From a virus (taxonomy: Duplodnaviria; Heunggongvirae; Uroviricota; Caudoviricetes), in the IMG/VR virus record IMGVR_UViG_3300029234_000244: 17,679 nucleotides of DNA; one strand, written 5' to 3'. This document shows, in pieces, positions 708 through 15,620 of the stretch. Position 1 is the stretch's first letter; each line of letters begins with the position of its first letter. A program made the translations under genes and the position numbers. The notes beneath the pieces are model-generated. The model saw only the letters and a program-made list of their open reading frames with translations. It searched no databases and was not told the DNA's origin.

Positions 708-1227
708 GTGAAGGCGGAAAAGTAAGAATTGGCGTTACGAGTTATTCGATGTTGAATCTGTTTGTAGAGTGTTGGCTTCAATGCCGCATTGTAGCTGGTT
801 TCTTTCTAATGCGGTTTTTGATTATGTACACCCTTATGTACACGGTTTTTTCGGGTGCTTTGGCCAGAAGCCATTGTCTACATCCCTCACGATCGAGGTG
901 TGTAACCATGTTCAGGCTTGTTGTCCTGCGCGCGCGTATTGCTCGTGAAATTGCTGTAACCAATAGTGATGTCCGAAAAAACCTCCGTTCTCACATGAAA
1001 CAGCCATGTGCAACTGGTAACTGAATAGACTGGTAGACCGTTCGTTCAGTAAATACCTGATATTTTCGCCAACGAGAAATTGCGTTGGCTGGCAGAGTGC
1101 AAATTTGCACTATGACCTAACCCATTGTTTTTTTTCGAAAACCTACAATGCAGGAAGCCGGATAACACCATTTTTATAGCTCCGATCCCTTCAAAGTGAG
1201 GGGTAATTTGCCAAAACAGAGAGAGCA

Positions 1228-1515: not shown

Positions 1516-1546
1516 TTCTGCCTCTCAGATTATATAGATAAGCAAA

Positions 1547-1672
1547 AAGGTGTTGGTTCAGTTGGTTCAGTTGGTTCAATTTGTAAAGAGCGTTGTTTTT
1601 ATTGTGTTTTTTCTAAAATATTGAACCAACATCAACTCATTTTGAACCAACACAGCCCAGCTCTGAACCAAC
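1547..1672. repeat. Iteron cluster 1 (crr-like): 3 tandem GTTGGTTCA, AT-rich spacer, then 3 inverted copies TGAACCAAC at 21-bp phasing
   Basis: GTTGGTTCA at 1552-1560, 1561-1569, 1570-1578. TGAACCAAC at 1622-1630, 1643-1651, 1664-1672. The first ~55 bp are a near-perfect reverse complement of 8497-8556. Confidence 0.65.
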
Positions 1673-2231: not shown

Positions 2232-3194
2232 TTATTCAATATCAAATAAATGCCTTGGGAAACCGTTATTATCAGGTAATCCCATGGCTGTCAGGTTACA
2301 TCCTGGTAAGTTAGGCTTGTTATCTACAAGGTTGGCAACTTTTTTTATCCAGTCAGATCCCGGTCCAATTTTTTTCACTAAAAACCATAACACAGCGATC
2401 ATTCCGTACATTCTTTCGTACGCATCATCATTCATATTTAATTGTTCAAAGTACGGCTCATTTGGCAAAGGCATTAATCTTGGTTCGTTGACCTTGTTCC
2501 AGATGCGTGAATGGTGAGCGCACCGATTCCTTAGCACATTCATTGCGCTAAGCCAGTTTTGGAAGATAGCTCCATTGCCTGCCGCTATCCCTAGCCTAGA
2601 TAGTATCCTGTTGCGATAGCTGTCTTTTAGCATCGCATAATACTTTGACATTAAGCCGAAGTCCCACACTTCAATAACCACCCAGAAAGGAAGACCTTCG
2701 TACTTGTTTTCATGCCATTTGATAAAGTCTTCGCGACTTTTAGCAATCTCGGCATTATGTTTATTTATCCATTCTTCTCTGGCGCTTGGGCGACCATGGG
2801 AACGTGGTCTAAAGTGTTTTGGATTTATTAGCGAGTCATCAAGATATGCTAAAGGAGATATCTTACCAAGCTCATGAGCAATAACTGACCGAACATAAAC
2901 CTCAATGCGTTCTAACGCATTCATCATCTGCAAACGCAGATTTTTATCGAATAAATAGAGGTCATATACTGCGCGAAAATTAGTACCTGGACGAACCTGA
3001 TCGAGTCTGGTTCTAATATTGTCTGTTGTTATATGGGGGATTCGGCAGGGGTACCAAAAGCCTGATAATCGGTAGTAGCCTACTTGTGAGATTTTCTTGA
3101 TAGCATGTTCGCGATCTGGCACATCCATACCCCGAGACAGCAATAAATCGACAAGTTCATCATATTCTTTATGAACCTTAACCGGAACAGCCAT
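2232..3194 (-). CDS. Abi_2-family abortive infection protein (AbiD/AbiF-like)
   Basis: 320-aa ORF with hallmark motifs GYYRLSGFWYP and LRNRCAHHSRIWN, and a typical N-terminus (YDELVDLLLSRGMDV). The gene is visibly AT-rich. Its stop is 1 nt from the stop of the convergent RHH gene. Confidence 0.8.
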   Translation of the reverse strand: MAVPVKVHKEYDELVDLLLSRGMDVPDREHAIKKISQVGYYRLSGFWYPCRIPHITTDNIRTRLDQVRPGTNFRAVYDLYLFDKNLRLQMMNALERIEVYVRSVIAHELGKISPLAYLDDSLINPKHFRPRSHGRPSAREEWINKHNAEIAKSREDFIKWHENKYEGLPFWVVIEVWDFGLMSKYYAMLKDSYRNRILSRLGIAAGNGAIFQNWLSAMNVLRNRCAHHSRIWNKVNEPRLMPLPNEPYFEQLNMNDDAYERMYGMIAVLWFLVKKIGPGSDWIKKVANLVDNKPNLPGCNLTAMGLPDNNGFPRHLFDIE

Positions 3195-4242: not shown

Positions 4243-6348
4243 TTATTGAGCTTCCTTTTGCGATGCTTGTGCGACTCTGGTGAGCGATTGTGTGACCGTA
4301 CTGATCGCTCTGTCATATGCTGTGCTACCTTTTGGCGTATTTGCCAGACGTAACAAGGCATTTCGTATAACAGGGCTTTCGTATGCCTTCGCTGCTCCGC
4401 CTACGGCACCAGCAGCAGGAACAACAAACGCAGCCGTTTTTAGCATCCCCGCTAATACTGCTGCGTTTATGATGCCACCACCAACTAACAATCCATAAAG
4501 CTGCTGACCATTTAAGTTTTGAACGTTCGCTTTTGCCGCGTGTCTTGTATCGTTGAGGTATTTAATAACGCCGTCCAGTTCCTTTCCATGTATGCCTTTA
4601 AAGAAAGTTGCTGATTGCTTCCTGTTCCGGTGTAACGCATTAATAAACTTCTCAACACTGATATTTCCAGACGGATCAGTCGCCTTATCTACAGCATTCT
4701 GAACTATGGCTGCTCGTGCGTTTTGCCTACCATTGTCATCCAGAAGCCTGTAAAGCTGAGAACGTTCTGATGGGCTTTGGCTAAAAACAAGTTTTGTTAC
4801 ATCCTCAGGCGTGGCCTTGCCGCTGGCTATTGCCTTTTGAACGCGCGTTCTTCCCATCATGTCATTGAATTTAGACCATGAGCGATCAACCCTTGCCATA
4901 TTAATAGCTTCGTCTGCTCCAAGATTTTTGGCTACGGCTTTTTTCATATCCGCCGTATATGCCTTGTAGATAATATCGCTGGCTTTCTGGAGCGTATCTT
5001 TATCAACAGTGTCAGATGACGCCATAAATCGCTTTCGAAGATCGGTTCTGTTTTCCCTCGCCAGACGCAGGTCATTTGGTCCGCTGGTGATATCGTCTTT
5101 AAATTGCTGCAAGACTTTTACCGCGGCTCTATCCTGAGATTTGCCCGGGCGGCTTAACACGGCAATCTGATTGTCGATAGCTTTTACCGTGTTTGAGAGA
5201 TCGACAGGGGTATCCCCCATAGCGTCAATTATGCGGTTATATCGCTTTCCTGCTGCCTCAATGAATTTTTGTTGCCCTTTAGTCGCAGATTCATAAAGCT
5301 GTTTATCAGAAATGCCACCCAGACCATCGCTAAATGTTCTGACTAAATTTTCTCGTGCTTGTTGTTGATTCAGCCGATTCTTACCGGTTCCAAAAAAAGG
5401 AACTCTTTCGCCTAATGTCTGAGCCTGACTCTGCATAAAGGTTTTATCTTTCAGCATGTCACTGGTCATTAACGGCAGATTTCTTTCCGATGCAAAGTCG
5501 ACAGCAGCCTTTGCTTCAGGCGACATATCACCACGAACAGCCCTCGAAACCGCACTCGCTGTATTTTCCAGCCCCTTACCAATACCACCAATGCCAGCAG
5601 AAATTACCGTTTGTAACGGATCAATATCTTCTCCACCAGCGAGGCTGGTGGCTCCCTGTAGTGCTAAATCTGTAGCTGCTGATTTCCCTATGGCCCCCAG
5701 CACCGTTCCGGCCCTGCCCGCTGGTGTAAACGCCAGCGCATTAGCCAGAAACGATGCCACGTCTTGCGGCGATAAACCCGGCTTGTTCAGAGCATAATCA
5801 CCGGATGGCAGGGAAACGATAGTGTTACCCTTCTCATCCTGCCTTAATTTCGCTCCCATGCTCTGAAGAATCTTTTCCTGAGATGCGTCAGAGCCGAAAA
5901 GTTGAGACCATCGAGCTTTTAGAGCATCCATGCTGAGTGAGGTTAACTCTGGGGCAAGGTCGACATTTTGCAGTCTCTCCATCTCTGGAGTCATTCGGCT
6001 TTCGCCTGTTATAGCATCGCGCATCGCAGCCCCAAGACTGGCTCCCTGTTCTGCTGAACGCTCAAGCCCCTCTCTTTGCTGAGTAGCTAACTTTGCATAC
6101 CCTGACGCAATAGAATTATCAGATGATGTATGTTGAATATTTTGAGTTGCTGATTGGGATCGGTCTATTTCATTCGTTGATGGTAGTGGATAGGCAGCAT
6201 AAAAAGCCTGCTTAGCCTGCTCTACACTTTCTCCGGCTTGCGGGGCAACGACTTCATTGAAGTATTGCTCCTGAGCCTGCGCTTTTTGTTCTGGTGCTAA
6301 CGCCTGATACTGTGGAGAGGCGATAACATCTTTCCATGCTTTAGCCAT
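4243..6348 (-). CDS. Hypothetical 701-aa protein, Ala/Gln/Gly-rich, C-proximal hydrophobic Gly/Ala segment
   Basis: Long ORF with GGGGTGA Shine-Dalgarno; its ATG overlaps the upstream stop (TAATG at 6346-6350). Contains LYGLLVGGGIINAAVLAGMLKTAAFVVPAAGAVGGAA about 60 aa from the C-terminus. I see no Walker A or other catalytic motif. Confidence 0.8.
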   Translation of the reverse strand: MAKAWKDVIASPQYQALAPEQKAQAQEQYFNEVVAPQAGESVEQAKQAFYAAYPLPSTNEIDRSQSATQNIQHTSSDNSIASGYAKLATQQREGLERSAEQGASLGAAMRDAITGESRMTPEMERLQNVDLAPELTSLSMDALKARWSQLFGSDASQEKILQSMGAKLRQDEKGNTIVSLPSGDYALNKPGLSPQDVASFLANALAFTPAGRAGTVLGAIGKSAATDLALQGATSLAGGEDIDPLQTVISAGIGGIGKGLENTASAVSRAVRGDMSPEAKAAVDFASERNLPLMTSDMLKDKTFMQSQAQTLGERVPFFGTGKNRLNQQQARENLVRTFSDGLGGISDKQLYESATKGQQKFIEAAGKRYNRIIDAMGDTPVDLSNTVKAIDNQIAVLSRPGKSQDRAAVKVLQQFKDDITSGPNDLRLARENRTDLRKRFMASSDTVDKDTLQKASDIIYKAYTADMKKAVAKNLGADEAINMARVDRSWSKFNDMMGRTRVQKAIASGKATPEDVTKLVFSQSPSERSQLYRLLDDNGRQNARAAIVQNAVDKATDPSGNISVEKFINALHRNRKQSATFFKGIHGKELDGVIKYLNDTRHAAKANVQNLNGQQLYGLLVGGGIINAAVLAGMLKTAAFVVPAAGAVGGAAKAYESPVIRNALLRLANTPKGSTAYDRAISTVTQSLTRVAQASQKEAQ

Positions 6349-7814
6349 TAATCACCCCATAGTGAAGAAAAGTTACTGCTGGCTGCTGGCTGTGATACCT
6401 GCTCAGATTGCGGCAATGTCTGCGACGAAGAAGAAGTTCCTCTGTCAACTGCTGAAATAACCCGCAAAGCATCATAAGTTCGACCAGAAGCAGCTTTCAG
6501 CGAATTGAACTGGTTTTCCATCTTCCGGCGCTTGGTATCAATGGTTTTTGTGGAGTCGCCAGGCTGAGGGAAATACATTTGATAATATTTTGACATTTCA
6601 GCAGGTGCGATAGCTGCCCCTGTTTCCTGACGGAGTATTGCCATTATTGCGTCATTAGCATTAACAACGTATTGCTGCTCTGCTGGGCTGAGCGTTAAGT
6701 TAGCCAGCGTCCCATTACCCAAAGCATTATTAATGATCGCCACTCGCTGTGGGCTAAGCTGGTCTTTCAGTGTATCTATTGAATCAAGAGCATCCCTAAC
6801 CCTGTATGCAAATCCAGCAGCTTTTTTAGCCCCTTCTGGCGACTTTTCCATGATCTTTTGGGCTGTTGGCAAAGCTATTGGACGAAACCCATCTCCAGAT
6901 ATTGGCTGGTTTAGTTTTCCCTGCTCTTCACTTCCGTCTGTGTAGTATTTTGTGACAGTGCCATCATCGTTTTCTCTAACACTCATTAATTTTTTGGTGT
7001 TTGTATTAATTCCAGCCGCTGCCGCAAATGCCGCCGCCCCCTCTGGATCAGCCTTTAACATTTGCGCGTACTGATTGTAATTCTGCATTGCTGCTGTTGG
7101 TGCATATGCTGACGTTAACGCATTTGCTCGGCTAATATCCTGCCCTCTCGCCTGAAGTGCTTCACCAGCCTGATTGCTGCGGATTGTCTCTGCCAACTTG
7201 CCACGCTCAATATCCCGACTTTCCATTTGATCTTTGATATCGAAATACTTCTCATGACCGAGAGAAAACAGCGCCAGATTACCTGCGAAATGCTGGAAGC
7301 CCTGCGGGTCATTAACCTGCATTTCAGCAATAGTTTCTGGAGGGATACCTAAACGACGCATCTCCTGCTCATTATCCATCATGAACCTGCCAAATGCGCC
7401 CGGACCAAGCGATGAGGCTACCTGTGCTTTGAGCGCCAGATTGCCATAATCATCCCTTTGAGCATCATCGACATAACTCATCCCTTTACGGACTTCCTCA
7501 AACTCTTCTGGGAATGCTGTAATAAGATTACGCATCTGCTCCCTGTCACCGGACGCATAAGCATCTGCATAACCTTTCTGGAATGCCGCTTTACGCTCCT
7601 GCTGTTGCTGCTGCTTATAAATATCAGCAACTCCAGCCAGACCACGAAGACCTGTCAGAGCAACGTTATTTGCACCTGATCGAGCCAGTTCATTGTTTTC
7701 GCGGATCAGACCAAGCGTTGCGTTAATGTCGCTTGCCTTTGGCGCATTCTCATTTTGCGTACCGATGCCAGCAAGAAACCCACCAGAATTAATACCCTGT
7801 TGCCACGTAGCCAT
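6348..7814 (-). CDS. Hypothetical 488-aa protein, Gln/Ala-rich, no recognisable domain
   Basis: Long ORF. I prefer ATG at 7814 (MATWQQGINSGG...), 4 nt after the stop of the 57-aa gene. The ORF track uses a GTG at 7826, which would overlap that gene. Stop overlaps the start of the 701-aa gene. Confidence 0.8.
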   Translation of the reverse strand: MATWQQGINSGGFLAGIGTQNENAPKASDINATLGLIRENNELARSGANNVALTGLRGLAGVADIYKQQQQQERKAAFQKGYADAYASGDREQMRNLITAFPEEFEEVRKGMSYVDDAQRDDYGNLALKAQVASSLGPGAFGRFMMDNEQEMRRLGIPPETIAEMQVNDPQGFQHFAGNLALFSLGHEKYFDIKDQMESRDIERGKLAETIRSNQAGEALQARGQDISRANALTSAYAPTAAMQNYNQYAQMLKADPEGAAAFAAAAGINTNTKKLMSVRENDDGTVTKYYTDGSEEQGKLNQPISGDGFRPIALPTAQKIMEKSPEGAKKAAGFAYRVRDALDSIDTLKDQLSPQRVAIINNALGNGTLANLTLSPAEQQYVVNANDAIMAILRQETGAAIAPAEMSKYYQMYFPQPGDSTKTIDTKRRKMENQFNSLKAASGRTYDALRVISAVDRGTSSSSQTLPQSEQVSQPAASSNFSSLWGD

Positions 7815-7818
7815 TGAT

Positions 7819-7992
7819 TTACCCACGTCCAGTTAAAGTGTAAGCCAGCGCCTTATCCATTAATCCCCGAGCAATTTCGTGGATCGTTGGCGCAACTCCT
7901 ACCTCTGATTTTTTACGCTGCTCCTCCTGAATTTTCTTTATCGCTTCCATTTGCTTCTCACTTATCAATACCGGCTTTACTGAAATAGCCAT
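7819..7992 (-). CDS. Small 57-aa protein, helix-rich, possible DNA-binding (HTH/RHH-like); first gene of the LexA-box operon
   Basis: Translated by hand: MAISVKPVLISEKQMEAIKKIQEEQRKKSEVGVAPTIHEIARGLMDKALAYTLTGRG. Shine-Dalgarno AAGGGGG lies 4 nt before the ATG at 7992. Below the 60-aa cut-off of the ORF track. Confidence 0.55.
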   Translation of the reverse strand: MAISVKPVLISEKQMEAIKKIQEEQRKKSEVGVAPTIHEIARGLMDKALAYTLTGRG

Positions 7993-8087: not shown

Positions 8088-8120
8088 AAAAAAATGCCAC
8101 CGCTCAGTAGCTGGTGGCAT
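8088..8120 (-). terminator. Rho-independent terminator (minus strand) ending the primase operon
   Basis: Minus-strand reading ATGCCACC-(11 nt loop)-GGTGGCAT followed by T7 (plus-strand A-run 8088-8094). Lies downstream of the primase gene and iteron cluster 2, just before the LexA promoter. Confidence 0.6.
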
Positions 8121-8440
8121 CGTTCTGTGTGTCAGGTTTTGACAGGTTTTTTATGGACTCTAAAAACTATATTTATGGTGTCGCATTACTCTTCACGGCA
8201 GGCGCTTTTCAGTTCTGCCCTTGCTTCTGGCTCCATTGGTAATTTGATTCGCGATCAGCTATGCGGATGGTTTGCTGAACAGGCATAACAACTTCTCAGG
8301 GGCTGTTTTCTGAACTACGAAAATTTCGTAGTGCTCACTTTCAAAAACGTCACGCCCTTGTACACAGGATTTTACGAAAGTCTCGTAAAACACTCTCTGA
8401 TGCCAGCCAGGTGTTGAGCGCATCAATTCAGTCACATTGT

Positions 8441-8551
8441 GTTGGTTCAAAATACCGTGTTGTTGGTTCAGTGTTGGTTCAATAAAAAGAATAAAATCCT
8501 TACAAAACAATACTCTTTGCAAATTGAACCAACTGAACCAACTGAACCAAC
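8441..8551. repeat. Iteron cluster 2 (ori-like): 3 GTTGGTTCA at 21/11-bp spacing, AT-rich spacer, then 3 tandem TGAACCAAC
   Basis: GTTGGTTCA at 8441-8449, 8462-8470, 8473-8481. TGAACCAAC at 8525-8533, 8534-8542, 8543-8551. Located 25 bp after the primase stop. Inverted relative to cluster 1. Confidence 0.65.
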
Positions 8552-8576
8552 ACCTTTTCTACGCACATGAAGAAGC

Positions 8577-11333
8577 TCATTCTTCAGATGAGTTATAATC
8601 TCCTGGCTGGTAATTGAGTACATAAACGTTTATTTGTCGTCCCTGAATACGTGGTGATTTTCTTTGGTATCCACGACCGCTGTTTGGTGGGGTTAGCATC
8701 CCGGCTTTTTTCAACACTTCAGCAAACTGTTTTGCGTTGAAACCACATGCGATCTCCTTTTCAAATGTGGCCGGGAATGTGTAGAAAATCATTGGGCTTT
8801 CGTCATGTTCTCCACGCTGACGGTATCCGGCTAAATCTTTGATGGGCAAATCTGCCGGGCTGTATGGAAATGGTGCAAAACGGCTAAGCCCATAGGCATT
8901 AAGAAATGCCTCCGTTTGTTCAATAATCTGCTGATGTTCTTTGTTACCTGTGCCGAACTCGCGCAACCATGCGTTATAGCTGTGCTGTATCGCATCACGG
9001 CATGTCTGAGCATCCCAGCCTGTTACAACTTCGCCTAACAGCAATGCTGCCTCCAGAATGGCAAATCGCGCGGCTACACGGTGAACCTGCTCACCATAAT
9101 CGGATGGGATCAGGCTTCTCCATCTGCTTTCGCAATCACGAACAGTTTTAATAGCCTGTTGCTGGTGGTCTGCCAGCCATTTAATCCACTCACGCCCGGC
9201 TGCGCCGTGGTGATGCTGGTAAGCGTCTTTCAGTGCGTCTGCGTGCTGTTTTCCGTTCTGGTAATCGTGAAAGCGTACTGCTTTACTCAACGGAATATTC
9301 AGCAGTCGCACCAGTTGCCCGGCTTTGGTTTTTCGCCCGGAAGTAGCGATAAATGTTTCTAAATCCATTTCTCCGGTGCTGATTGCCACTGTACGCCAGC
9401 GTTTTAGATCCCGGTTTCCACCATCTTTAGCGCCTTGCAGTTTCCCTACACCGTTAAATAACGCATAGGCAGACTGTGAAACGCTGACAGGATCAGCGCC
9501 CTGACCAACTTCATCAAGCGGCATTAATCCGTCATTGTGGGCGGCGGCCTCATTTGCCAGCCCCAGCGCGGTTCCGTACCACGTCAGCCGCAGTAAATCA
9601 GGGTTGCCGTATAAGCTGCTCGCCACGTTTGCCGTGGTGGTCTTACCCGCGCTCGACTGCTCATAGAAATGAATGCCGAACCCGTCAGCGCCCACCAGCC
9701 CAATCAATGGCGCTGCCAGTGCTGCGCCGATCCCGGTCATCATTGAATAGTTACCAAAGGCCAGACGCGCCACGTTATCACGCCAGCTTTTCGCGCTCCC
9801 TGAGACGGTATATCCGGCTGCGGCTGAGCTTCTCCCGCTGAACAGCACAGGATTTTCAGGTGTTCCGATGATTTCCCCATCAGGCATGATGTACGCTCCG
9901 CATTGCCAGCCAGTGGCATGAGCAACACGCCACAATTCACGAGAGCCACTGCGTTGTAGCCAGTCTGCCAGTATTGCTCTGAGGCTGCTTTTGGTCGTGA
10001 CATTTACCCCACCAGCTTTAAGTGTGCGCCATCCTTCACGTTCACCAATATCAGCCAGTGGAATGGCAGCGGTTGTCGGCGTTTCAGAACCAAACGACAG
10101 CCAGCGAAGAATGAGATACTGGTCTTTATCGTCTCTGCCAGTACCGATAACGCTTAACGGAGAACATAACCAGCTTTCGTTATTGATGATTTCTCCACTC
10201 TGGCTGTCAGCTCTCGGAGATACCCAATAAATACCATCCTCGCGGCTTTCTATTCTTGGTTTCAGTGGGTCGGTATCCATAACCTTAAAATCGCTTCCCT
10301 CAATGGTCTGTGGCTCCTGTTTCACGCCATTACCCTGTGGTTGGTACATTGACTTATTGAACGCTTCTGTGGCGCATTTAATGCCGTGTTTTTGGTGGTA
10401 ATCATTCCAGTCTGCTTTGTGATCTGTCGGGGGTAATGCCACCCATCCAGAAACAGATAAAGCTGCTTTTTCTGCTGCTATTCTCCCCGTGTTTTGTCTT
10501 CCTTCGCTGTGGTCGTTATCCGCAGCAATGATGATTTGTGCTGAAGGAAATTTATCCCGCAGTACCTGGGCGACATATAACAGGTTCCCGGCATCAATCG
10601 CCGCCACTGTCAGCGCCTCTGGACGAATTAAATGGGCAGATAATGCCGTTGCCAGCCCTTCTGCGATTAAGATGCTCTGTGTTGTTTCTGGTGCGTTTAT
10701 GGCGTGATATGCCCCTCGCTTTGCTGAACCTGTCAGGAGTCTTTTTTCACCATGTGAGGTAATAGTCTGTGCTGCTGTGACTGCGCCGGATTTATCCACC
10801 AGCGCCAGCAACAGAGATCCATCGGGCAACACGGGGAATGTAAAATCACCTACCCCTTTCGCAACCAGATAATCAGATTTGCCGTTTACAGCCTTTCTGC
10901 GCATGTCATCAAACTGACGGGAAAACGTATCCCGTCTTTGTTGTTCGTCCTTCTCTGCCCTTTTCAGGCGCTCCTGTTCGCGTCGCTGGCGCTCGGTTTC
11001 CAGTTGTTCCCGTTTCTGGCTGGTGGCTTCTGGTGTTTCCGTTGTCCGGTAATCAATACCCAGAACATCAGCGGCAAGAAGCGCCGCCTCTGTTGTGTCG
11101 CAGTTATTTACGCGTTTAATTAAATCCAGCCCATCACCAGCGCCGCACTGATTACAGATGAAGCTACCGCGCCCGTTGTCATCGAACCGGAATCGATCTT
11201 TGCCCCCACATGCAGGGCAGGGAGCATGACGGCGCGGAGAGTCAGGGACATTTATGTTCAGGCAGCCCAGCACATGAGGCCAGTTGTTTTCAGACGCACT
11301 GATAACCTGACGGATAAGATCAATGTTTCGCAT
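8577..11333 (-). CDS. P4 alpha-like primase-helicase (zinc-ribbon + TOPRIM primase, C-terminal P-loop/origin-binding region)
   Basis: 918-aa ORF. N-terminal zinc ribbon CPACGG...FICNQCG. TOPRIM motifs LIAEGLATALS (conserved Glu) and IIIAADNDHSEG (DxD). P-loop-like SSAGKTT. Shine-Dalgarno GGGGG before the ATG at 11333. Confidence 0.9.
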   Translation of the reverse strand: MRNIDLIRQVISASENNWPHVLGCLNINVPDSPRRHAPCPACGGKDRFRFDDNGRGSFICNQCGAGDGLDLIKRVNNCDTTEAALLAADVLGIDYRTTETPEATSQKREQLETERQRREQERLKRAEKDEQQRRDTFSRQFDDMRRKAVNGKSDYLVAKGVGDFTFPVLPDGSLLLALVDKSGAVTAAQTITSHGEKRLLTGSAKRGAYHAINAPETTQSILIAEGLATALSAHLIRPEALTVAAIDAGNLLYVAQVLRDKFPSAQIIIAADNDHSEGRQNTGRIAAEKAALSVSGWVALPPTDHKADWNDYHQKHGIKCATEAFNKSMYQPQGNGVKQEPQTIEGSDFKVMDTDPLKPRIESREDGIYWVSPRADSQSGEIINNESWLCSPLSVIGTGRDDKDQYLILRWLSFGSETPTTAAIPLADIGEREGWRTLKAGGVNVTTKSSLRAILADWLQRSGSRELWRVAHATGWQCGAYIMPDGEIIGTPENPVLFSGRSSAAAGYTVSGSAKSWRDNVARLAFGNYSMMTGIGAALAAPLIGLVGADGFGIHFYEQSSAGKTTTANVASSLYGNPDLLRLTWYGTALGLANEAAAHNDGLMPLDEVGQGADPVSVSQSAYALFNGVGKLQGAKDGGNRDLKRWRTVAISTGEMDLETFIATSGRKTKAGQLVRLLNIPLSKAVRFHDYQNGKQHADALKDAYQHHHGAAGREWIKWLADHQQQAIKTVRDCESRWRSLIPSDYGEQVHRVAARFAILEAALLLGEVVTGWDAQTCRDAIQHSYNAWLREFGTGNKEHQQIIEQTEAFLNAYGLSRFAPFPYSPADLPIKDLAGYRQRGEHDESPMIFYTFPATFEKEIACGFNAKQFAEVLKKAGMLTPPNSGRGYQRKSPRIQGRQINVYVLNYQPGDYNSSEE

Positions 11334-11345
11334 TCTGGCCCCCGT

Positions 11346-11948
11346 TTAGTGCGTCACTGGTGCTTCTGGGATGCCGTTTTCGTTTAGTTCGGCAATAAAG
11401 CTGTTGTGAAGATCGGCAAGCACTTCTCGCCCAAACGAAGTGAGTGTTCCCTGTTCGACATCGAACATGTTGCTGTAAAAAATGATGGCATTCTTTGTTC
11501 CGACATCAACACCATATTTCTCGATCATTGCGCCCTCAATGTTGTTTGCCATAGCGAGGCGCTCTGCTACTGGATACAGCGGCATGGCGACGATGCCATT
11601 GGAATAAACAGAAACCACGGAATGATTGCCACTGTCATCAATAATGCTGACGGTGCCGTTTTCCTTTCTCATTTCATTGATGAATGCTGTTGCTATCAGC
11701 CAGCGCCACATAATCACGTGATGCTGTGATGTGTAATCGAAATATCCCTGGTTGCCGCCACTGGCAATAGCGAGATGTATAAACATGCCTTCATCTGGTT
11801 TATCGTCATAATCCCCGGCATCCAGACGATTTACGGCATCAATATATGAGACGGTCTCAACGCGTTCTGTCATGCCATCGTTGCTGCGGTACATGATGTT
11901 TACGCCGTCAGGCGTTGCTTCTGCATGGAAAGTTAAGAAATTATTCAT
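11346..11948 (-). CDS. Hypothetical 200-aa protein
   Basis: In-frame ATG at 11948 (MNNFLTFHAEATPDG...) overlaps the upstream stop as ATGAATAA. The ORF track start at 12053 would overlap the upstream gene, so I reject it. Stop is 12 nt before the primase ATG. No recognisable motif. Confidence 0.65.
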   Translation of the reverse strand: MNNFLTFHAEATPDGVNIMYRSNDGMTERVETVSYIDAVNRLDAGDYDDKPDEGMFIHLAIASGGNQGYFDYTSQHHVIMWRWLIATAFINEMRKENGTVSIIDDSGNHSVVSVYSNGIVAMPLYPVAERLAMANNIEGAMIEKYGVDVGTKNAIIFYSNMFDVEQGTLTSFGREVLADLHNSFIAELNENGIPEAPVTH

Positions 11949-12162
11949 GTTTCGCCTCGCCTGAATGATTCTGTAACTCATATTTGCCCAACAATTCGTC
12001 CGCTTCCTGAATAGCTTCTGGTACGCCATTGAGCAGTGACATAACCGCGCCAATCATTAACTTGTCTCTGTTGCTGGGGCTGGCCCCTTCAAGCCAGAAC
12101 CCTAAAACAGTCTGAACCTGTTCGATGCGACATTGCGCTTCAATGAGCTGGATGTTGGTCAT
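11941..12162 (-). CDS. Hypothetical 73-aa protein
   Basis: ORF whose ATG overlaps the upstream stop (ATGA at 12159-12162); part of the coupled chain. Confidence 0.55.
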   Translation of the reverse strand: MTNIQLIEAQCRIEQVQTVLGFWLEGASPSNRDKLMIGAVMSLLNGVPEAIQEADELLGKYELQNHSGEAKHE

Positions 12163-12422
12163 TTCGCACTCTCCACATCGATTAAACCGATATCTATCAG
12201 GGAGGTAACTTTTTGTAGCCAGCTATTGATTACTGTCGCCTGTTCCCCTCCCACCGAGGGAACAATCTCATTCATCACATGAACCAGACCTGTGCGCGCT
12301 CTGGTAAGCCGTTCAGTCGCGCAATCTGCGGGAGTGAATGTGTCTGGATATGGCTCTTCGCGCCCCAGCAATGATTCAATTTCCAGCTCACACGGATGAC
12401 GATAAATTAAGTTGATATTCAT
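12159..12422 (-). CDS. Hypothetical 87-aa protein
   Basis: ATGA overlap with the upstream gene at 12419-12422; GGGGGTGA Shine-Dalgarno. Confidence 0.55.
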   Translation of the reverse strand: MNINLIYRHPCELEIESLLGREEPYPDTFTPADCATERLTRARTGLVHVMNEIVPSVGGEQATVINSWLQKVTSLIDIGLIDVESAK

Positions 12423-12607
12423 TTTTCACCCCCAAGAATTACCAGCTCGGCACGGGCATCGTTAACCAAAGATGAGCACGCTTTAATCGCATCCACGACA
12501 TCAGCAGTTTCTTCAGCCGAAAGACTGACAGCAACCAGGACAGCCGCTGCTTGCTCGATTAATTGAAGTGCGGACGTAAGGCGAGGGGTATTAATTGAGT
12601 TATTCAT
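12419..12607 (-). CDS. Hypothetical 62-aa protein
   Basis: Start chosen at ATG 12607 ([10 protein letters not shown]...) with GGGGG Shine-Dalgarno and ATGAATAA overlap with the upstream stop. The ORF track start at 12664 lacks a Shine-Dalgarno. Confidence 0.5.
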   Translation of the reverse strand: MNNSINTPRLTSALQLIEQAAAVLVAVSLSAEETADVVDAIKACSSLVNDARAELVILGGEK

Positions 12608-12818
12608 TGGTTGCCCCCGTTTTGCATGGCATTTGTCCACCTTCCAGCAGGAAATGAACGTCACGAACGGCGAGATCCAATATCGCGAGTAACGCCTTCA
12701 GTCTTTCGTCTCGTGAGGGAGAGTTGCTCACCAGAATGTCGTTAATCACTTCTGTCAGTGTGATGATCTGGCTTGTGCGTTCGAGGGGATCCATATGCAC
12801 ATCGTAGGTTTTAATCAT
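12600..12818 (-). CDS. Hypothetical 72-aa protein
   Basis: ATG at 12818 ([17 protein letters not shown]...) preceded by GGAGGTG Shine-Dalgarno; overlaps the Icd-like stop (ATGATTAA). Shares its frame with the C-terminus of the 342-codon ORF. Confidence 0.5.
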   Translation of the reverse strand: MIKTYDVHMDPLERTSQIITLTEVINDILVSNSPSRDERLKALLAILDLAVRDVHFLLEGGQMPCKTGATNE

Positions 12819-13628
12819 GTGCCACCTCCATGCGGATACGACCAGCAAAAAAGCAGACGTGATCGCGCACCAGAGAACGGCGAGCATCGCGTTCAGACTC
12901 GGCAGCAATATGATGAATTTTGGCGGTAATTGTCGGGCAATCGCGGCGAACTGCGGCGATAATCCAGATAAATTGAGGTTTTTGGGTAGGGGTAGTAGCC
13001 AGCATGTGGCAGCCTCCTTGATTGATGGTTTATAGCCACCGCCCAAGAGACCAATCTTGCTGGCGGTGGACTGTACGGAGTTGGCCTTACTGGCAATCAA
13101 GGAAACCAGCCTACCCGAAGGTAGCCCCATACAGCCCACCATTGATAAGGTGTGCGTGTGCGCCGATACAAAAAAAGACGCTGGCGCGTCATGTATCGCC
13201 TCGATTGTCAGCGGGAGGCCAATCCCGGCACCCGTTTTATGAGGTGCTTTATAACCATAAACCGTGTTGCCGCATAACGGCAAGCTCTTTTTTATGGACT
13301 CCGAAAACTCAGTATTGGAAGCACCAGATGCACAGTACATCGCGCTCATTTCGTTAACGTCACGCACGTGGACGAATGTTTTTGTGGAGTCACTACACGA
13401 GCGGAAGACATCATCTACGACCAGAAATTTTCTGGCGCAGCCGCTGACCTTCTCAATGCTAATATCATCGCCCGAGATTTCTGGTATGGTTAAGGCATCC
13501 GTTCCGACCACCAGCAAATGATAAACTTTGCTTGCATCTGCTGTATTAATGCCTGACTTTGCCGTCATATTGCTGGATTTTGGCGACATACCTGCCAGTG
13601 AAAATGTCTTCTTCTGGACGGTTAGCAT
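12600..13628 (-). CDS. Hypothetical protein; 342-codon ORF that is probably composite (only the first ~205 codons, about 13012-13628, are well supported)
   Basis: ATG at 13628 has GGAGG Shine-Dalgarno and is coupled to the DUF4222 stop (ATGCTAA). The frame stays open to 12600, but codons about 208-270 run out of frame across the Icd-like gene and translate to low-complexity sequence. Codons 271-342 equal the separately supported 72-aa gene. Confidence 0.4.
12811..13005 (-). CDS. Host cell division inhibitor Icd-like protein (64 aa)
   Basis: ATG at 13005 preceded by a strong Shine-Dalgarno AGGAGG at 7-nt spacing. Protein [21 protein letters not shown]...[16 protein letters not shown] resembles Icd-like proteins of P4-like islands, from memory. 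Confidence 0.5.
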   Translation of the reverse strand: MLATTPTQKPQFIWIIAAVRRDCPTITAKIHHIAAESERDARRSLVRDHVCFFAGRIRMEVAHD

Positions 13629-13804
13629 TTGTTAACCTCCGCGAACTCCTTCATGAAACGTGCCAGCGGTTGTACGCATGGCGATTGATACCCGTCGCGA
13701 TAAAACGTCACTCGGTTGTGAGACACGCTTTCGACAGTAACGAGTGCTCCGTGGGCATCTTTGTAGCGTTTTTGTGGTTGTGGTATTCCTGTTGGCTTAG
13801 ACAT
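13622..13804 (-). CDS. DUF4222-like small protein (60 aa)
   Basis: ATG at 13804 (MSKPTGIPQPQKRYKDAHGALVTVESV...RVTFYRDGYQSPCVQPLARF) overlaps the AntA stop. The pattern matches DUF4222 as I recall it. The ORF track start at 13891 would overlap AntA. Confidence 0.55.
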   Translation of the reverse strand: MSKPTGIPQPQKRYKDAHGALVTVESVSHNRVTFYRDGYQSPCVQPLARFMKEFAEVNKC

Positions 13805-14630
13805 TGAGCGCCTCCAGACGCTTGGCGAGCCAGCGTTGCGACAGGCGGGTGAGTTCTCCTTTGCGCTGCTCATATTCCATGCCCATATCAATTAACGTGA
13901 TATTGGTGCTTTCGAGATATGAGAGGTGCTCAAGCTGTTCTGCGTTCATATGGTCGCGAGGTTCGCCAGAATAGCCATTTATCCGCGCCCACTGCTTAGC
14001 AGTTAGCCCACCAAGAACGATACGAGAAATCATATTGCTCTCGTTTGTGTAGTGGTGTTGCTGCGTCGTTTTCCCCTGCTCGGCACGGGCCATGTTCAGC
14101 GCATCGCACATTGGCTTAAAGTTGTTTGCGGCACTGATACGGGCTTTTAGCTGGCGACGATAGCGGGCGGCGATTTCAGGCACGGTACGCTGTAATTCTT
14201 CCTCGCACTGGATGAAATAACGACGGATAGCGCGACCCTGATCATTGCGTTCGATCATTGCCAGTTCTTTCGCCATTCCGACACTTAACAGATAGTCTTT
14301 GCCGGGTCTGCCAGACTGCTTAATCTTGCTGTAAGCCGCGCCATTCGGGCTTTTCCCCAAATTTGGGGAAATTGTTTTATGGACTGAGTAATCGTGCCCA
14401 ATGGTGAAGTCATATTCAGAGATGCGATCAGTGATCCATGTAGAGAAGTCTTTTCCCACGCCCAACGCTTTGTGTAACGCTTTTGCGCTAACAATATTGG
14501 TTTCACGCCCACCTATATGACCAGAAATAACCGGGACAATTGCGGCAAATTCATTACCGTTAATTGTGCCCAGAGAGGCGTTCAGATGAGGGGCGGCCTC
14601 AGAAATTAATCTGCTTTTTTCGATGTTCAT
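13797..14630 (-). CDS. Phage antirepressor, AntA/AntB family
   Basis: 277-aa ORF. SAKALHKALGVGKDFSTWITDRISEYDFTIGHDY and DYLLSVGMAKELAMIERNDQGRAIRRYFIQCEE match the AntA-domain consensus pattern. GGAGA Shine-Dalgarno. Confidence 0.7.
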   Translation of the reverse strand: MNIEKSRLISEAAPHLNASLGTINGNEFAAIVPVISGHIGGRETNIVSAKALHKALGVGKDFSTWITDRISEYDFTIGHDYSVHKTISPNLGKSPNGAAYSKIKQSGRPGKDYLLSVGMAKELAMIERNDQGRAIRRYFIQCEEELQRTVPEIAARYRRQLKARISAANNFKPMCDALNMARAEQGKTTQQHHYTNESNMISRIVLGGLTAKQWARINGYSGEPRDHMNAEQLEHLSYLESTNITLIDMGMEYEQRKGELTRLSQRWLAKRLEALNV

Positions 14631-14642
14631 TTTTAGTCTCCG

Positions 14643-15074
14643 TTAGGCGGCGTTAAACGCGTCCGGGTAGAGTTTCAGAATGTCGGCAATTTCCTGCTGA
14701 GAAAGTCCGTTGTGATCATTTATGTTCGCAAGATGGTTAACATGAGTGATCACTTTCAGAACATCACCACGGCAGGAGAAACGGTAGCGAAGGTGTGTTC
14801 CGATACCATCAGGATTCTTTTCGTCGATACGCTCCAGAGTGATTCCAAGCTGGCGTTCTAACTCTGTTGCATAGTTACGACCAGAAGACAGACGGCAGTA
14901 GCGAAGAATGTCATTTTCTGTCCATCCCTCTATACCAGTACGCAGCATATAGACTCGGGCACGATGCTTTTTCGGTGTGCGCTTTGGTGCTTGAAGGGAT
15001 TTTGTAAGGGGCGTAATATCAGATACGCGAATATCTGAATTAGCCGCCTGTAATGGGCGGTTTTTCTTTTCCAT
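14643..15074 (-). CDS. Hypothetical 143-aa protein
   Basis: ORF with ATGA overlap to the alpA stop (15072-15076); basic N-terminus; no recognisable motif. Confidence 0.65.
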   Translation of the reverse strand: MEKKNRPLQAANSDIRVSDITPLTKSLQAPKRTPKKHRARVYMLRTGIEGWTENDILRYCRLSSGRNYATELERQLGITLERIDEKNPDGIGTHLRYRFSCRGDVLKVITHVNHLANINDHNGLSQQEIADILKLYPDAFNAA

Positions 15075-15292
15075 CAGGCCACCTTCCCGCGGCGTTCTGC
15101 CAGCCAGTTATTAATTTCCACCGCATCAAACGCAGTCACGTTATCTGTTAGCTTCACTGGGCGTGGAAGAGTGCCATTTTTAACCCATCTATCAATAGTA
15201 GGCAGTGAAACACCTAGCAATTCCGGCATGCGAAAGCGACGGATGTATCCAGTTGTTGGGATAGCTGATGATGCTGGCTTGTGTGCTGTCAT
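15074..15292 (-). CDS. alpA: AlpA-family phage transcriptional regulator
   Basis: 72-aa ORF. MPELLGVSLPTIDRWVKNGTLPRPVKL...AFDAVEINNWL fits the AlpA HTH pattern (HTH followed by FP.P.KL and a W-containing tail). First gene of the coupled operon. Confidence 0.8.
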   Translation of the reverse strand: MTAHKPASSAIPTTGYIRRFRMPELLGVSLPTIDRWVKNGTLPRPVKLTDNVTAFDAVEINNWLAERRGKVA

Positions 15293-15425: not shown

Positions 15426-15580
15426 ATTGCAAATGCAGGTGGGATAATTATTTTCTTTATTTTCAATTAGTTACCAGTTTAAAAAATCATTGTTTTATCA
15501 AAGAGTTATATCTTTCATCGTCATTCATCATGTTTTTACATTTCTTTTTATCTTTTATTATTCAATTGGTTGAGTCGGTT

Positions 15581-15620
15581 TATAATGGCTCATGATGGCT
15601 TAAAATGGCTAATGATAGCT
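15581..15620. repeat. Four tandem 10-bp repeats (NNNNATGGCT) at helical periodicity
   Basis: tataATGGCT / catgATGGCT / taaaATGGCT / aatgATAGCT, with ATGGCT at 15585, 15595, 15605 and ATAGCT at 15615. Confidence 0.45.

What the first reader, a model, noticed from the sequence alone, without database searches (positions are those of the whole stretch)
11346..15292. Exceptionally tight translational coupling from alpA to primase; helper-exploitation genes not recognisable
Nearly every junction from alpA to the primase overlaps or nearly abuts (ATGA at four junctions, ATGAATAA at two, ATGTCTAA, ATGCTAA, and a 12-nt gap with Shine-Dalgarno before the primase). This implies a single polycistronic unit from a promoter upstream of alpA and ending at the terminator at 8088-8120. 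The island has the int/alpA/primase core of P4-like and PICI-like satellites but nothing resembling sid, psu, delta or a terminase small-subunit redirector. The unknown 62, 72, 73, 87 and 200-aa proteins, and possibly the 488/701 pair, are candidates for helper-phage interference functions.
Basis: partly seen in the sequence, partly recalled or inferred. Interest (0 to 1): 0.4.

Follow-up and report, generated by a model that had tools for sequence, protein, structure and literature searches.

The report
Satellite early operon with RNA immunity gate

Summary
The overlaps are real. From alpA (15292) to the primase start (11333) no junction leaves more than 12 untranslated bases, and a strong terminator sits at 8088-8120. 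Details need correcting: plain ATGA occurs at two junctions, alpA/orf143 is TGATG, and there are two 12-nt gaps.

The "342-aa gene" (13628-12600) is not a simple gene. It contains a conserved P4 PLE-like promoter, an isrK/seqA-like RNA with a weak terminator (13247-13171) and a C4/CI-type antisense RNA (13146-13059). It also overlaps an out-of-frame Icd/Kil-like gene (13005-12811) and orf72.

The C4 loop is complementary to the icd Shine-Dalgarno. Loop and targets co-vary across 21 enterobacterial loci (15 specificities).

The element is 97-100% identical over most of the operon to EcCIMP1, a published satellite mobilised by the P22-like phage Kapi1. The 488/701 pair are P22 gp20/gp16-type ejection proteins. 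A 99%-identical island also occurs as a precisely excised 12.2-kb circle.

P4 uses the same logic: translation coupled from the alpA homologue through eta overrides RNA immunity. So the coupling is functional but not new. The small proteins stay unassigned.

The parts
15074..15292 (-). alpA (72 aa), first gene of the operon. It belongs to the exchangeable int-orf216-alpA integration module.
   Evidence: Pfam Phage_AlpA E=6.1e-6. It is unrelated to EcCIMP1 alpA, but 77-93% identical in L007/L008/L012/L015/L020, where int co-varies with it.
14643..15074 (-). orf143, conserved unknown protein. Its start overlaps the alpA stop (TGATG).
13797..14630 (-). AntA/AntB-family (Bro-network) anti-repressor-like protein, 277 aa.
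   Evidence: Pfam AntA E=1e-21. phrog_5817 anti-repressor E=2e-38.
13622..13804 (-).
   Evidence: Pfam DUF4222 E=3.8e-25. Junctions ATGTCTAA and ATGCTAA.
12600..13628 (-). Long eta/Ash-like ORF (342 codons). It is translationally coupled to DUF4222, runs over the internal promoter, isrK, C4 and the icd gene (in frame +1), and ends in frame with orf72.
   Evidence: Pfam Phage_ASH covers only aa 124-218, which equals nt 13259-12975, the RNA region. A long ORF spans isrK+C4 in 21/21 loci. Frame +1 of icd is stop-free in 9/9 loci of this configuration and closed in 12/12 others. The P4 counterpart is eta (PMC10111431).
13254..13283 (-). P4 PLE-like internal promoter: -35 TTGCCG, 18-nt spacer, -10 TATGGT. 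The start site would fall at about 13247.
   Evidence: The motif GCTTGCC-N17/18-TATGGT-N6-G is conserved upstream of isrK in nearly all loci, with the same layout in P4. Coordinates. The generic promoter scan did not call it.
13171..13247 (-). isrK/seqA-like RNA element. It carries the upstream targets a1 (about 13224-13215) and b1 (13207-13199) and ends in a weak intrinsic terminator (13190-13171).
   Evidence: Rfam RF01394, 65 bits, E=3.4e-12. The same model hits P4 seqA. Terminator (-10.9 kcal/mol).
13059..13146 (-). C4/CI-type antisense (immunity) RNA.
   Evidence: Rfam RF01695, 79.2 bits, E=2e-14. The same model hits P4 CI. 98.6% of cells paired and 17/27 pairs with compensatory changes. 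MFE -42.4 kcal/mol, z = -4.2.
13013..13056 (-). Downstream targets of the antisense RNA: a2 (13056-13047) and b2 (13024-13013). b2 covers the icd Shine-Dalgarno AGGAGG.
   Evidence: 12-bp duplex, -14.4 kcal/mol, between the C4 hairpin-2 loop and CAAUCAAGGAGG. Own duplex mean -14.0 versus cross-locus -6.0 +/- 2.9 kcal/mol over 21 loci.
12811..13005 (-). Icd/Kil-like gene (64 aa) with its own SD. It is out of frame with the long ORF.
   Evidence: NCBIfam NF033153, 71.7 bits, E=3.7e-20. 43% identical to the C-terminal (Kil) part of the P4 eta ORF.
Its start ATGATTAA overlaps the icd stop. It is nested in frame in the 3' end of the long ORF.
   Evidence: No family hit.
12419..12607 (-). orf62, unknown.
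   Evidence: no family.
12159..12422 (-). orf87, unknown.
   Evidence: no family. Present in 9 of 19 related loci.
11941..12162 (-). orf73, unknown (phrog_20558).
11346..11948 (-). orf200, conserved unknown protein (phrog_1515).
8577..11333 (-). Primase-helicase (zinc ribbon, Toprim, DUF927), last gene of the operon.
   Evidence: Pfam. phrog_1139 E=2.5e-178. 99.7% identical to EcCIMP1. 34% identical to the N-terminal half of P4 alpha.
8438..8558 (.). Iteron cluster (GTTGGTTCA units) just downstream of the primase; putative origin.
8088..8120 (-). Strong intrinsic terminator ending the unit.
   Evidence: -26.2 kcal/mol, z = -6.1, followed by U7.

Best explanation
The segment is the early (regulatory plus replication) operon of an EcCIMP1-like phage-inducible chromosomal island. 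Its control region is homologous to the left operon of satellite P4. It would work in two modes.

**Immune (resting) mode.**
- A constitutive P4 PLE-like promoter inside the long eta/Ash-like ORF starts an untranslated leader at about 13247.
- Part of that transcript stops at the weak isrK terminator.
- The rest is processed to a stable C4/CI-type RNA.
- The loop (b') and junction (a') of that RNA pair with a1/b1 in the isrK element and with a2/b2 just downstream.
- b2 covers the Shine-Dalgarno of the icd/kil-like gene, so icd is not translated.
- Every gene from icd to the primase starts within or a few bases after its predecessor's stop. None of them is therefore translated, and the naked RNA is open to termination. 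The island does not replicate.

**Induced mode.**
- A helper phage turns on the promoter upstream of alpA.
- Ribosomes pass from alpA through orf143, antA and DUF4222 into the long ORF. They run across the isrK terminator, the C4 sequence, the icd gene (in another frame) and orf72, then on through orf62-orf87-orf73-orf200 to the primase.
- No untranslated gap exceeds 12 nt over 6.7 kb. The RNA structures and termination sites are overridden and the replication genes are expressed.

**What is shown and what is inferred.**
- Shown here: the junction geometry, the RNA elements and their structure, the loop-target covariation, the conserved long ORF and promoter motif, homology to EcCIMP1 and P4, and an excised circular form.
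- Inferred from P4, P1 and EcCIMP1 work: promoter activity, RNA processing, termination, the override by translation, and helper dependence.
For: - **Junctions.**
- **RNA elements.** isrK and C4 hits lie above Rfam gathering scores on the operon strand, immediately upstream of icd. The same two models find P4 seqA and CI, and the EcCIMP1 elements. They find 19/19 (C4) and 18/19 (isrK) loci from other Enterobacterales.
- **C4 fold.** 98.6% of cells are paired and 17/27 pairs carry compensatory changes. Slid controls give 33-52% paired.
- **Two-site antisense covariation.**
  - b' loop versus the icd SD region: own -14.0, cross -6.0 +/- 2.9 kcal/mol, with 15 distinct loops in 21 loci.
  - b' versus the b1 copy in isrK: -11.3 versus -4.7.
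  - a' junction versus a1: -15.3 versus -9.1.
- **Immunity cassette.** Window and EcCIMP1 differ exactly over a1..b2 and are 97-100% identical on both sides.
- **Cis fold.** The leader pairs a1/b1 with a'/b' in the predicted fold (z = -4.5).
- **Long ORF.** It spans isrK and C4 in 21/21 loci. Where it enters icd in frame +1, that frame is stop-free in 9/9 loci; it is closed at varied positions in 12/12 others.
- **Promoter.** The -35/-10 motif is conserved, and the isrK 5' end lies 7 nt after the -10, as in P4.
- **P4 parallel.** P4 eta starts at an ATGA overlap with the alpA homologue orf88, and it contains PLE, seqA, CI and in-frame Kil.
- **Published P4 mechanism.** The constitutive promoter is internal to eta. 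Its transcript terminates through the CI/seqA interactions. [quoted passage not shown] C4 and isrK hits in Gram-negative PICIs were also noted. Source: PMC10111431. See also PMC3632133 and PMC4825925.
- **Satellite status.** EcCIMP1 shares the operon (orf143 99%, antA 97%, icd 100%, primase 99.7%). It is excised and transferred only with helper Kapi1 and alpA (PMC11773190).
- **Mobility.** The circular record NZ_CP148430 equals the island joined at a 21-23-bp direct repeat.
Against: - There are no expression data for this island. The internal promoter matches only 4/6 + 4/6 of the consensus, and the generic scan missed it.
- The isrK terminator is weak (5-bp stem, -10.9 kcal/mol, z = -2.4).
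- The window's alpA is not homologous to the EcCIMP1 alpA that was tested genetically.
- Unlike P1, the anti-repressor gene lies upstream of the RNA gate, not downstream.
- Unlike P4, three genes separate alpA from the eta-like ORF, and that ORF is out of frame with icd.
- Rho dependence and RNase P processing cannot be examined in silico.
- Tight packing is also seen in the island's late genes. Part of the compaction may therefore be plain genome economy.
Confidence: 0.75

Rival explanations
1. This is one plain polycistronic mRNA of protein genes from a promoter upstream of alpA to the terminator at 8088-8120. There is no internal control, and the coupling serves only stoichiometry. The unknown small proteins carry the helper-interference functions.
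For: Continuous overlaps and a strong terminal terminator. The small proteins have no assigned function.
Against: Two RNA families hit above gathering score in mid-operon. An internal conserved promoter and a terminator are present. Antisense loop and target co-vary across 21 loci. The module is homologous to the P4 immunity region.
Confidence: 0.08
2. The RNA gate is functional, but the long Ash/eta-like ORF is not a meaningful protein, and upstream coupling plays no part in overriding the gate. On this view the open frame and the Pfam 'Ash' similarity are by-products of conserved RNA sequence. Induction works some other way, for example by titration or degradation of the C4 RNA, or by an AlpA-dependent promoter downstream.
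For: The Pfam Ash match (aa 124-218) coincides with the isrK-C4 stretch. The N-terminal 117 codons have no family, and most window/EcCIMP1 differences there change the amino acid. PGAP has annotated the region inconsistently: a pseudogene in MP1, 342 aa elsewhere.
Against: A 190-650-codon open frame crosses the region in 21/21 loci, despite indels and variable segments. The frame is preserved between window and EcCIMP1 through +1 and +38 indels. The alternative frame over icd is stop-free only where it is needed. In P4, Eta translation is reported to prevent termination (PMC10111431).
Confidence: 0.15
3. The island is a decaying, non-mobilisable remnant. The tight gene packing is then only inherited structure.
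Against: All operon ORFs are intact in the window. A precise circular form exists, with an intact primase. A second assembly has a separate permuted contig. EcCIMP1 is experimentally mobile. 1263 of 5426 complete E. coli genomes carry matching sequence.
Confidence: 0.04

Closest known systems
EcCIMP1, a phage-inducible chromosomal island of E. coli MP1 (Pick, Stadel and Raivio, ISME J 2025; PMC11773190)
   Same: Same operon in the same order: orf143 99%, antA 97%, DUF4222 97%, icd 100%, orf72 96%, orf62 94%, orf87 91%, orf73 100%, orf200 86%, primase 99.7%. Both carry isrK and C4 elements, a PerC-family gene and P22-type ejection genes downstream of the primase.
   Different: The integration module differs: int is 29% identical, alpA is unrelated, and orf216 is extra. 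The site is the 3' end of yicC rather than tRNA-Thr. The immunity RNA specificity differs, as a cassette swap over a1..b2. EcCIMP1 has two extra small genes before the primase and a fuller ejection/DUF2824 cluster. The window has AbiD. The paper does not describe the RNA gate.
Satellite phage P4: left operon and RNA immunity (PLE, seqA, CI RNA, eta/kil, alpha)
   Same: An alpA-type first gene is coupled to a long ORF. That ORF contains the constitutive promoter, seqA (= isrK model), CI (= C4 model) and a Kil/Icd-like end. Tightly overlapped small genes and a primase follow (PMC10111431). Iteron clusters occur at two separate sites, like ori and crr.
   Different: sid, delta, psu, epsilon, cII, gop and beta are absent. 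Three genes lie between alpA and the eta-like ORF. That ORF is in frame +1 relative to icd and is nested with orf72 instead of with kil. The primase C-terminal half is DUF927. The presumed helper is P22-like rather than P2-like.
Phage P1/P7 immI region (c4 antisense RNA, icd, ant)
   Same: A C4-family RNA with two recognition sites (a', b'). Upstream (a1, b1) and downstream (a2, b2) target copies are present, and b2 covers the icd ribosome-binding site. Icd-like ORF translation is coupled to the next gene. The Rfam c4-a1b1 model hits two related loci.
   Different: Here the gated genes are replication genes, and the AntA-family gene lies upstream of the gate. The P1 mechanism is recalled from established literature and was not re-read here.
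Gifsy-1 IsrK-orf45-anrP locus of Salmonella (PMC4825925)
   Same: An isrK-family element with a terminator, followed by a short ORF whose translation is needed for the next gene through an AUGA overlap.
   Different: In Gifsy-1, IsrK acts in trans as an activator and the gated gene is an anti-repressor. Here the isrK element is read as the seqA-type target of a C4 RNA.
Gram-negative PICIs with the four-zone layout: Integration, Bro, Replication, Late (Mageeney et al. 2023, PMC10111431; EcCICFT073 type)
   Same: int and alpA point inward. A Bro-network zone (AntA, Ash) carries immunity RNAs. The primase is followed by origin repeats. The late zone holds captured helper late genes.
   Different: No capsid-size or terminase small-subunit redirecting genes are recognisable. 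The captured late genes are podovirus ejection proteins.

Membership tests
EcCIMP1-like / Gram-negative PICI | Integrase followed by an alpA-family gene at one end, transcribed inward | tested here: met
   int 17679-16411 (Pfam integrase domains). alpA 15292-15074 (Pfam Phage_AlpA). Same strand.
EcCIMP1-like / Gram-negative PICI | Primase/replicase gene with an adjacent origin | tested here: met
   Toprim+DUF927 primase. Iteron cluster 8438-8558 directly downstream. Origin function is inferred.
EcCIMP1-like / Gram-negative PICI | No complete set of virion structural, terminase or lysis genes | tested here: met
   Only gp20/gp16-type ejection genes were found in the 17.7-kb window. About 200 nt of the island beyond int are outside the window.
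EcCIMP1-like / Gram-negative PICI | Sequence identity of the conserved core (anti-repressor, Ash, primase) to EcCIMP1 | tested here: met
   97%, 80% (variable immunity segment) and 99.7%.
EcCIMP1-like / Gram-negative PICI | Excision and circularisation at flanking direct repeats | tested here: met
EcCIMP1-like / Gram-negative PICI | Induction, replication and packaging depend on a helper phage | not testable with these tools
   Shown for EcCIMP1 with Kapi1 (PMC11773190). The helper of this island is unknown.
P4-like satellite (SatelliteFinder-type core) | sid, delta and psu capsid-size and late-control genes | tested here: not met
   tblastn of P4 Sid, Delta and Psu against the window: best E 0.48-0.57, or none. 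No Pfam or PHROG match.
P4-like satellite (SatelliteFinder-type core) | epsilon helper-derepression gene | tested here: not met
   Best tblastn E=0.08, elsewhere in the window. An AntA-family protein is present instead.
P4-like satellite (SatelliteFinder-type core) | alpha-type primase and P4-type integrase | tested here: met
   alpha aa 5-339, 34% identity, E=6.5e-42. int 24% identity, E=8e-17.
P4-type RNA immunity (PLE-seqA-CI-eta/kil) | CI RNA and seqA element on the operon strand, upstream of a Kil/Icd-like ORF | tested here: met
   C4 79.2 bits and isrK 65 bits in the window. The same models hit P4 CI and seqA. Icd-like E=3.7e-20.
P4-type RNA immunity (PLE-seqA-CI-eta/kil) | CI is complementary to sites upstream and downstream of itself, the downstream one at a translation start | tested here: met
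   Covariation over 21 loci.
P4-type RNA immunity (PLE-seqA-CI-eta/kil) | Long translated ORF (eta) coupled to the upstream gene, containing the promoter and RNAs, nested in frame with kil | tested here: inconclusive
   The long ORF is present and coupled (ATGCTAA) and contains the promoter and the RNAs. It is not in frame with icd; it is nested with orf72 instead. Translation was not measured.
P4-type RNA immunity (PLE-seqA-CI-eta/kil) | Premature, CI-dependent transcription termination that translation overrides | not testable with these tools
   Known for P4 (PMC10111431; PMC4825925).
P1/P7 immI (c4-icd-ant) | Anti-repressor gene downstream of icd and coupled to it | tested here: not met
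   antA lies upstream (14630-13797). orf72 and the replication genes lie downstream of icd.

The most novel reading that the evidence does not exclude
In this lineage (9 of 21 loci, including the window and EcCIMP1) the eta-like ORF has moved to frame +1 relative to icd. It reads through the whole 64-codon icd gene and fuses in frame with the next gene. The 195-nt icd segment would then be a selected dual-coding region.

On induction, ribosomes coming from alpA would cross icd out of frame. They would occlude its start and reach the replication genes without making the cell-division inhibitor. Only the immune-mode leader could ever yield Icd.

This would be an undescribed variant of the P4 eta/kil nested-gene switch. 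Separately, one or more of the conserved unknown proteins (orf143, orf200, orf72/62/87/73) may be new helper-interference or replication factors specific to satellites of P22-like phages.
Probability: 0.3. Interest if true: 0.45.

Novelty: new member of a known kind. Interest (0 to 1): 0.3.

Why it matters
**Annotation.** A gene that pipelines call 'ash family protein' is in large part a promoter, a seqA/isrK target with a terminator and a CI/C4 immunity RNA. An Icd/Kil-like gene overlaps it in another frame. Reading it as one ordinary protein hides the switch that decides whether the island replicates.

**Biology.** The result links the recently described EcCIMP1-type satellites of P22-like phages to the P4 regulatory logic. 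It predicts many hetero-immune types: 15 loop specificities in 21 loci, and a clean cassette swap between two otherwise near-identical E. coli islands. It also gives a concrete, testable reason for the unbroken chain of overlapping genes.

**Limits.** No new kind of system is revealed, and the small proteins remain unexplained.

Tried and rejected
- **Family searches on the small proteins.** Pfam, NCBIfam and PHROGs gave nothing for orf143, orf72, orf62 and orf87. orf73 and orf200 matched only unknown-function PHROGs.
- **Defence models.** PADLOC found nothing in the operon proteins tested. Only AbiD was found elsewhere in the island.
  - AlphaFold2 with 36-38-sequence alignments gave moderate models: orf143 pLDDT 71, orf200 pLDDT 70.
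  - Foldseek against BFVD gave no hit at E<=0.001 for orf143. The weak top hits were mostly HTH proteins.
  - I therefore do not assign functions. 'Winged-helix-like' for orf143 is only a topology remark.
- **P4 proteins against the window.** No sid, delta, psu, epsilon, cII, gop, beta, orf151 or orf106.
- **Generic promoter scan.** It found fewer sites than shuffles (8 versus 11.9). It called neither an alpA promoter nor the PLE-like promoter. The alpA promoter remains unlocated.
- **Phage DNA search with the operon.** Only the isrK-C4-icd segment and part of antA match phages (P1-like, Stx and others). No phage carries the operon.
- **Is the 342-codon ORF a chance open frame or a frameshifted Ash-Icd fusion?** I rejected chance because the ORF is open in 21/21 loci. 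A recent frameshift is unlikely because the configuration recurs in diverged loci with a stop-free alternative frame.
- **P4 primary paper.** The attempt to read PMC176756 failed because it is not held. P4 mechanism statements therefore rest on secondary descriptions in PMC10111431, PMC3632133 and PMC4825925.

Full report
**What is in the window.** All relevant genes lie on the minus strand.
- Integrase, 17679-16411.
- An unknown 216-aa gene, followed by a 471-nt AT-rich spacer.
- alpA.
- orf143.
- An AntA-family gene.
- A DUF4222 gene.
- A 342-codon ORF annotated elsewhere as 'ash family protein'.
- orf62, orf87, orf73 and orf200.
- A Toprim/DUF927 primase, 11333-8577.
- Downstream: iterons, a terminator, a 57-aa gene, two P22-type ejection protein genes, an AbiD gene and a PerC-family gene.

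**The observation.** I recomputed every junction.
- alpA/orf143: TGATG (-1).
- orf143/antA: +12 with GGAG.
- antA/DUF4222: ATGTCTAA (-8).
- DUF4222/long ORF: ATGCTAA (-7).
- Long ORF/orf62: ATGAATAA (-8).
- orf62/orf87 and orf87/orf73: ATGA (-4).
- orf73/orf200: ATGAATAA (-8).
- orf200/primase: +12.

The terminator at 8088-8120 is a strong hairpin (-26.2 kcal/mol, z = -6.1) followed by U7.

The tightness is conserved. In 19 loci from other Enterobacterales plus EcCIMP1, the chain from icd to the primase consists almost entirely of -1/-4/-8 overlaps or gaps of 12 nt or less. This holds although the number and identity of the small genes vary. It is not unusual for the family. P4 has ATGA and -8 junctions in the same operon. 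The island's own late genes are equally packed.

- The 342-codon ORF matches Pfam Phage_ASH only at residues 124-218.
- A 64-aa ORF in another frame (13005-12811), with its own AGGAGG, is a clear Icd-like protein (NF033153, E=3.7e-20).
- An Rfam scan found two elements above gathering score on the operon strand. One is isrK (13247-13171, 65 bits), ending in a short hairpin plus U6. The other is the C4 antisense RNA (13146-13059, 79 bits).
- These two elements lie exactly under the 'Ash' match.
- The same two models hit seqA and the CI immunity RNA of satellite P4, and the corresponding sites of EcCIMP1. The equivalence isrK = seqA and C4 = CI is stated in the literature (PMC3632133; PMC4825925; PMC10111431).

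**Is the RNA module functional?** All 19 loci recovered with the Icd-like protein carry C4 about 55 nt upstream of the icd start, and 18 carry isrK.
- *Structure.* On an alignment of 19 C4 sequences, the Rfam structure is 98.6% paired, and 17 of 27 pairs show changes on both sides. Slid controls give 33-52% paired.
- *Loop and SD.* The 12-nt loop of hairpin 2 is complementary to the sequence ending in the icd Shine-Dalgarno. In the window, UUUCCUUGAUUG pairs with CAAUCAAGGAGG (12 bp, -14.4 kcal/mol).
- *Second target copy.* A second copy of the target lies in the single-stranded part of isrK.
- *Third site.* The junction 3' of hairpin 2 is complementary to the isrK hairpin-2 loop and to a site just after C4.
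- *Covariation.* These sites co-vary. There are 15 different loops among 21 loci. The mean energy is -14.0 kcal/mol with the cognate SD region and -6.0 +/- 2.9 with non-cognate ones.
- *Cassette swap.* Window and EcCIMP1 are 97-100% identical on both sides but diverge, with compensating changes, exactly from a1 to b2. This looks like an exchange of an immunity cassette.
- *Cis fold.* The predicted fold of the leader pairs a1/b1 with a'/b' (z = -4.5).

This is the two-site arrangement known for P1 c4 (recalled from established literature) and for P4 CI with seqA and seqC.

**The long ORF and the internal promoter.**
- A long open frame crosses isrK and C4 in 21 of 21 loci.
- In 12 loci it is in frame with icd. 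That is the P4 situation: I verified in the P4 sequence that a 217-codon frame starts at an ATGA overlap with the alpA homologue orf88. That frame contains the isrK and C4 hits and ends with the Icd-like Kil sequence.
- In 9 loci, including the window and EcCIMP1, the frame is +1 relative to icd. It reads through icd and merges in frame with the next gene (here orf72), ending at ATGAATAA on the orf62 start.
- In those 9 loci the +1 frame of icd has no stop. In the other 12 it has one or more stops, at varied positions. This argues that the read-through is maintained by selection.
- Upstream of isrK, nearly all loci and P4 share GCTTGCC-N17/18-TATGGT-N6-G. This is a plausible sigma-70 promoter whose start would be the isrK 5' end (window coordinates 13283-13254).
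- Mageeney et al. summarise the P4 mechanism in these terms. [quoted passage not shown] Kil is a truncated Eta. [quoted passage not shown]

**Mechanism proposed.** Transcripts from the internal promoter are untranslated up to the icd start, which the C4 RNA blocks. Because each later gene depends on its predecessor's ribosomes, nothing down to the primase is made. Transcripts from upstream of alpA carry ribosomes continuously for 6.7 kb, with no gap longer than 12 nt, across the terminator and the RNA structures. That overrides the immunity. The sequence features are shown here. Promoter activity, processing, termination and override are inferred from P4.

**What the element is.**
- *Relation to EcCIMP1.* The operon is nearly identical to that of EcCIMP1: orf143 99%, antA 97%, icd 100%, orf73 100%, primase 99.7%. 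EcCIMP1 excises and is transduced only in the presence of the P22-like phage Kapi1, and this requires its alpA and int (PMC11773190). That paper notes that the anti-repressor, Ash and primase genes are the conserved core of 'EcCIMP1-like' elements, and that int, alpA and PerC vary. The window fits this: its int-orf216-alpA module is different and co-varies as a unit in other loci.
- *The 488/701 pair.* These are P22 gp20- and gp16-type ejection proteins (PF16928 E=6.4e-84; phrog_917 E=1.9e-143; phrog_770 E=6.9e-161). They share 72-89% DNA identity in pieces with P22-like phages. This fits the published idea of late-gene capture from helpers.
- *P4-specific genes.* sid, delta, psu and epsilon are absent.

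**Verdict.** The system is a new member of a known kind: an EcCIMP1-like PICI with P4-type RNA immunity. The only mildly new points are:
- the out-of-frame, apparently selected read-through of icd by the eta-like ORF;
- the extent of immunity-specificity diversity.

Noticed in passing
window 1545-1654 and 8438-8558: Two iteron clusters in inverted orientation, 6.9 kb apart. Each has three tandem GTTGGTTCA units plus two more copies. One lies just downstream of the primase and one next to the PerC gene. The layout recalls P4 ori and crr.
   Followed up: partly
L002 (NZ_CP148430.1, whole record) and L001 7723-19895: A 99%-identical but shorter island (12.2 kb) is deposited as a circular 'plasmid' in the strain that also carries it in the chromosome. 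The circle is the island joined precisely at a 21-23-bp direct repeat. The chromosomal primase copy has an internal stop; the episomal copy is intact.
   Followed up: yes
L024 (NZ_LT599831.1): A second strain (NRZ14408) has a separate 19.2-kb record named 'phage_14408_2'. It is a permuted copy of a related island with PerC joined to int. There the orf87 homologue is annotated 'nicotinic acetylcholine receptor subunit beta', an evident annotation error.
   Followed up: partly
window 741-760: A degenerate copy (TTATTCGATGTTGAATCTG) of the att core TTATTCAATATTCTGAATCTG marks the left end of the island. The right-hand copy, overlapping the yicC 3' end, lies about 190-210 nt beyond the window end.
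   Followed up: partly
window 12975-13259: The Pfam Phage_ASH match coincides with the promoter -10, isrK, C4 and target sites. Much of the 'protein family' conservation may therefore reflect conserved RNA rather than protein.
   Followed up: partly
window 13010-13223 versus L003 17551-17803: The only strongly diverged segment between this island and EcCIMP1 within the operon runs from the a1 site to the b2 site. It includes +1 and +38 indels that together keep the long ORF in frame. It looks like a swapped immunity cassette.
   Followed up: yes
window 15580-15620: Three to four repeats of an AGCCAT-containing 10-nt unit lie in the AT-rich spacer about 300 nt upstream of alpA. They could be a regulator or integrase arm-type binding site.
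   Followed up: no
L005, L008, L009, L013, L016, L018-L022 (between int and alpA): The Rfam 'int-alpA RNA' motif (RF02996) is present in many related islands but was not found in the window at gathering threshold. The window has orf216 overlapping the int stop instead.
   Followed up: no
window 2232-3194 and 1228-1515: The accessory region carries an AbiD-type abortive-infection gene (PADLOC AbiD E=2.7e-57) and a PerC-family regulator. EcCIMP1's PerC homologue was reported to repress the LEE island.
   Followed up: partly
window 4243-7992: The ejection-gene cluster is reduced here to a 57-aa gene plus gp20- and gp16-type genes. Related islands also carry DUF2824 and a 225-aa gene, and in the 12-kb variant the gp20-type gene is truncated. 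This zone is in flux.
   Followed up: partly
window 8259-8522: An 87-codon ORF between the primase and the terminator overlaps the iterons. It is conserved at DNA level in EcCIMP1 but unannotated there, and is probably not a gene.
   Followed up: no
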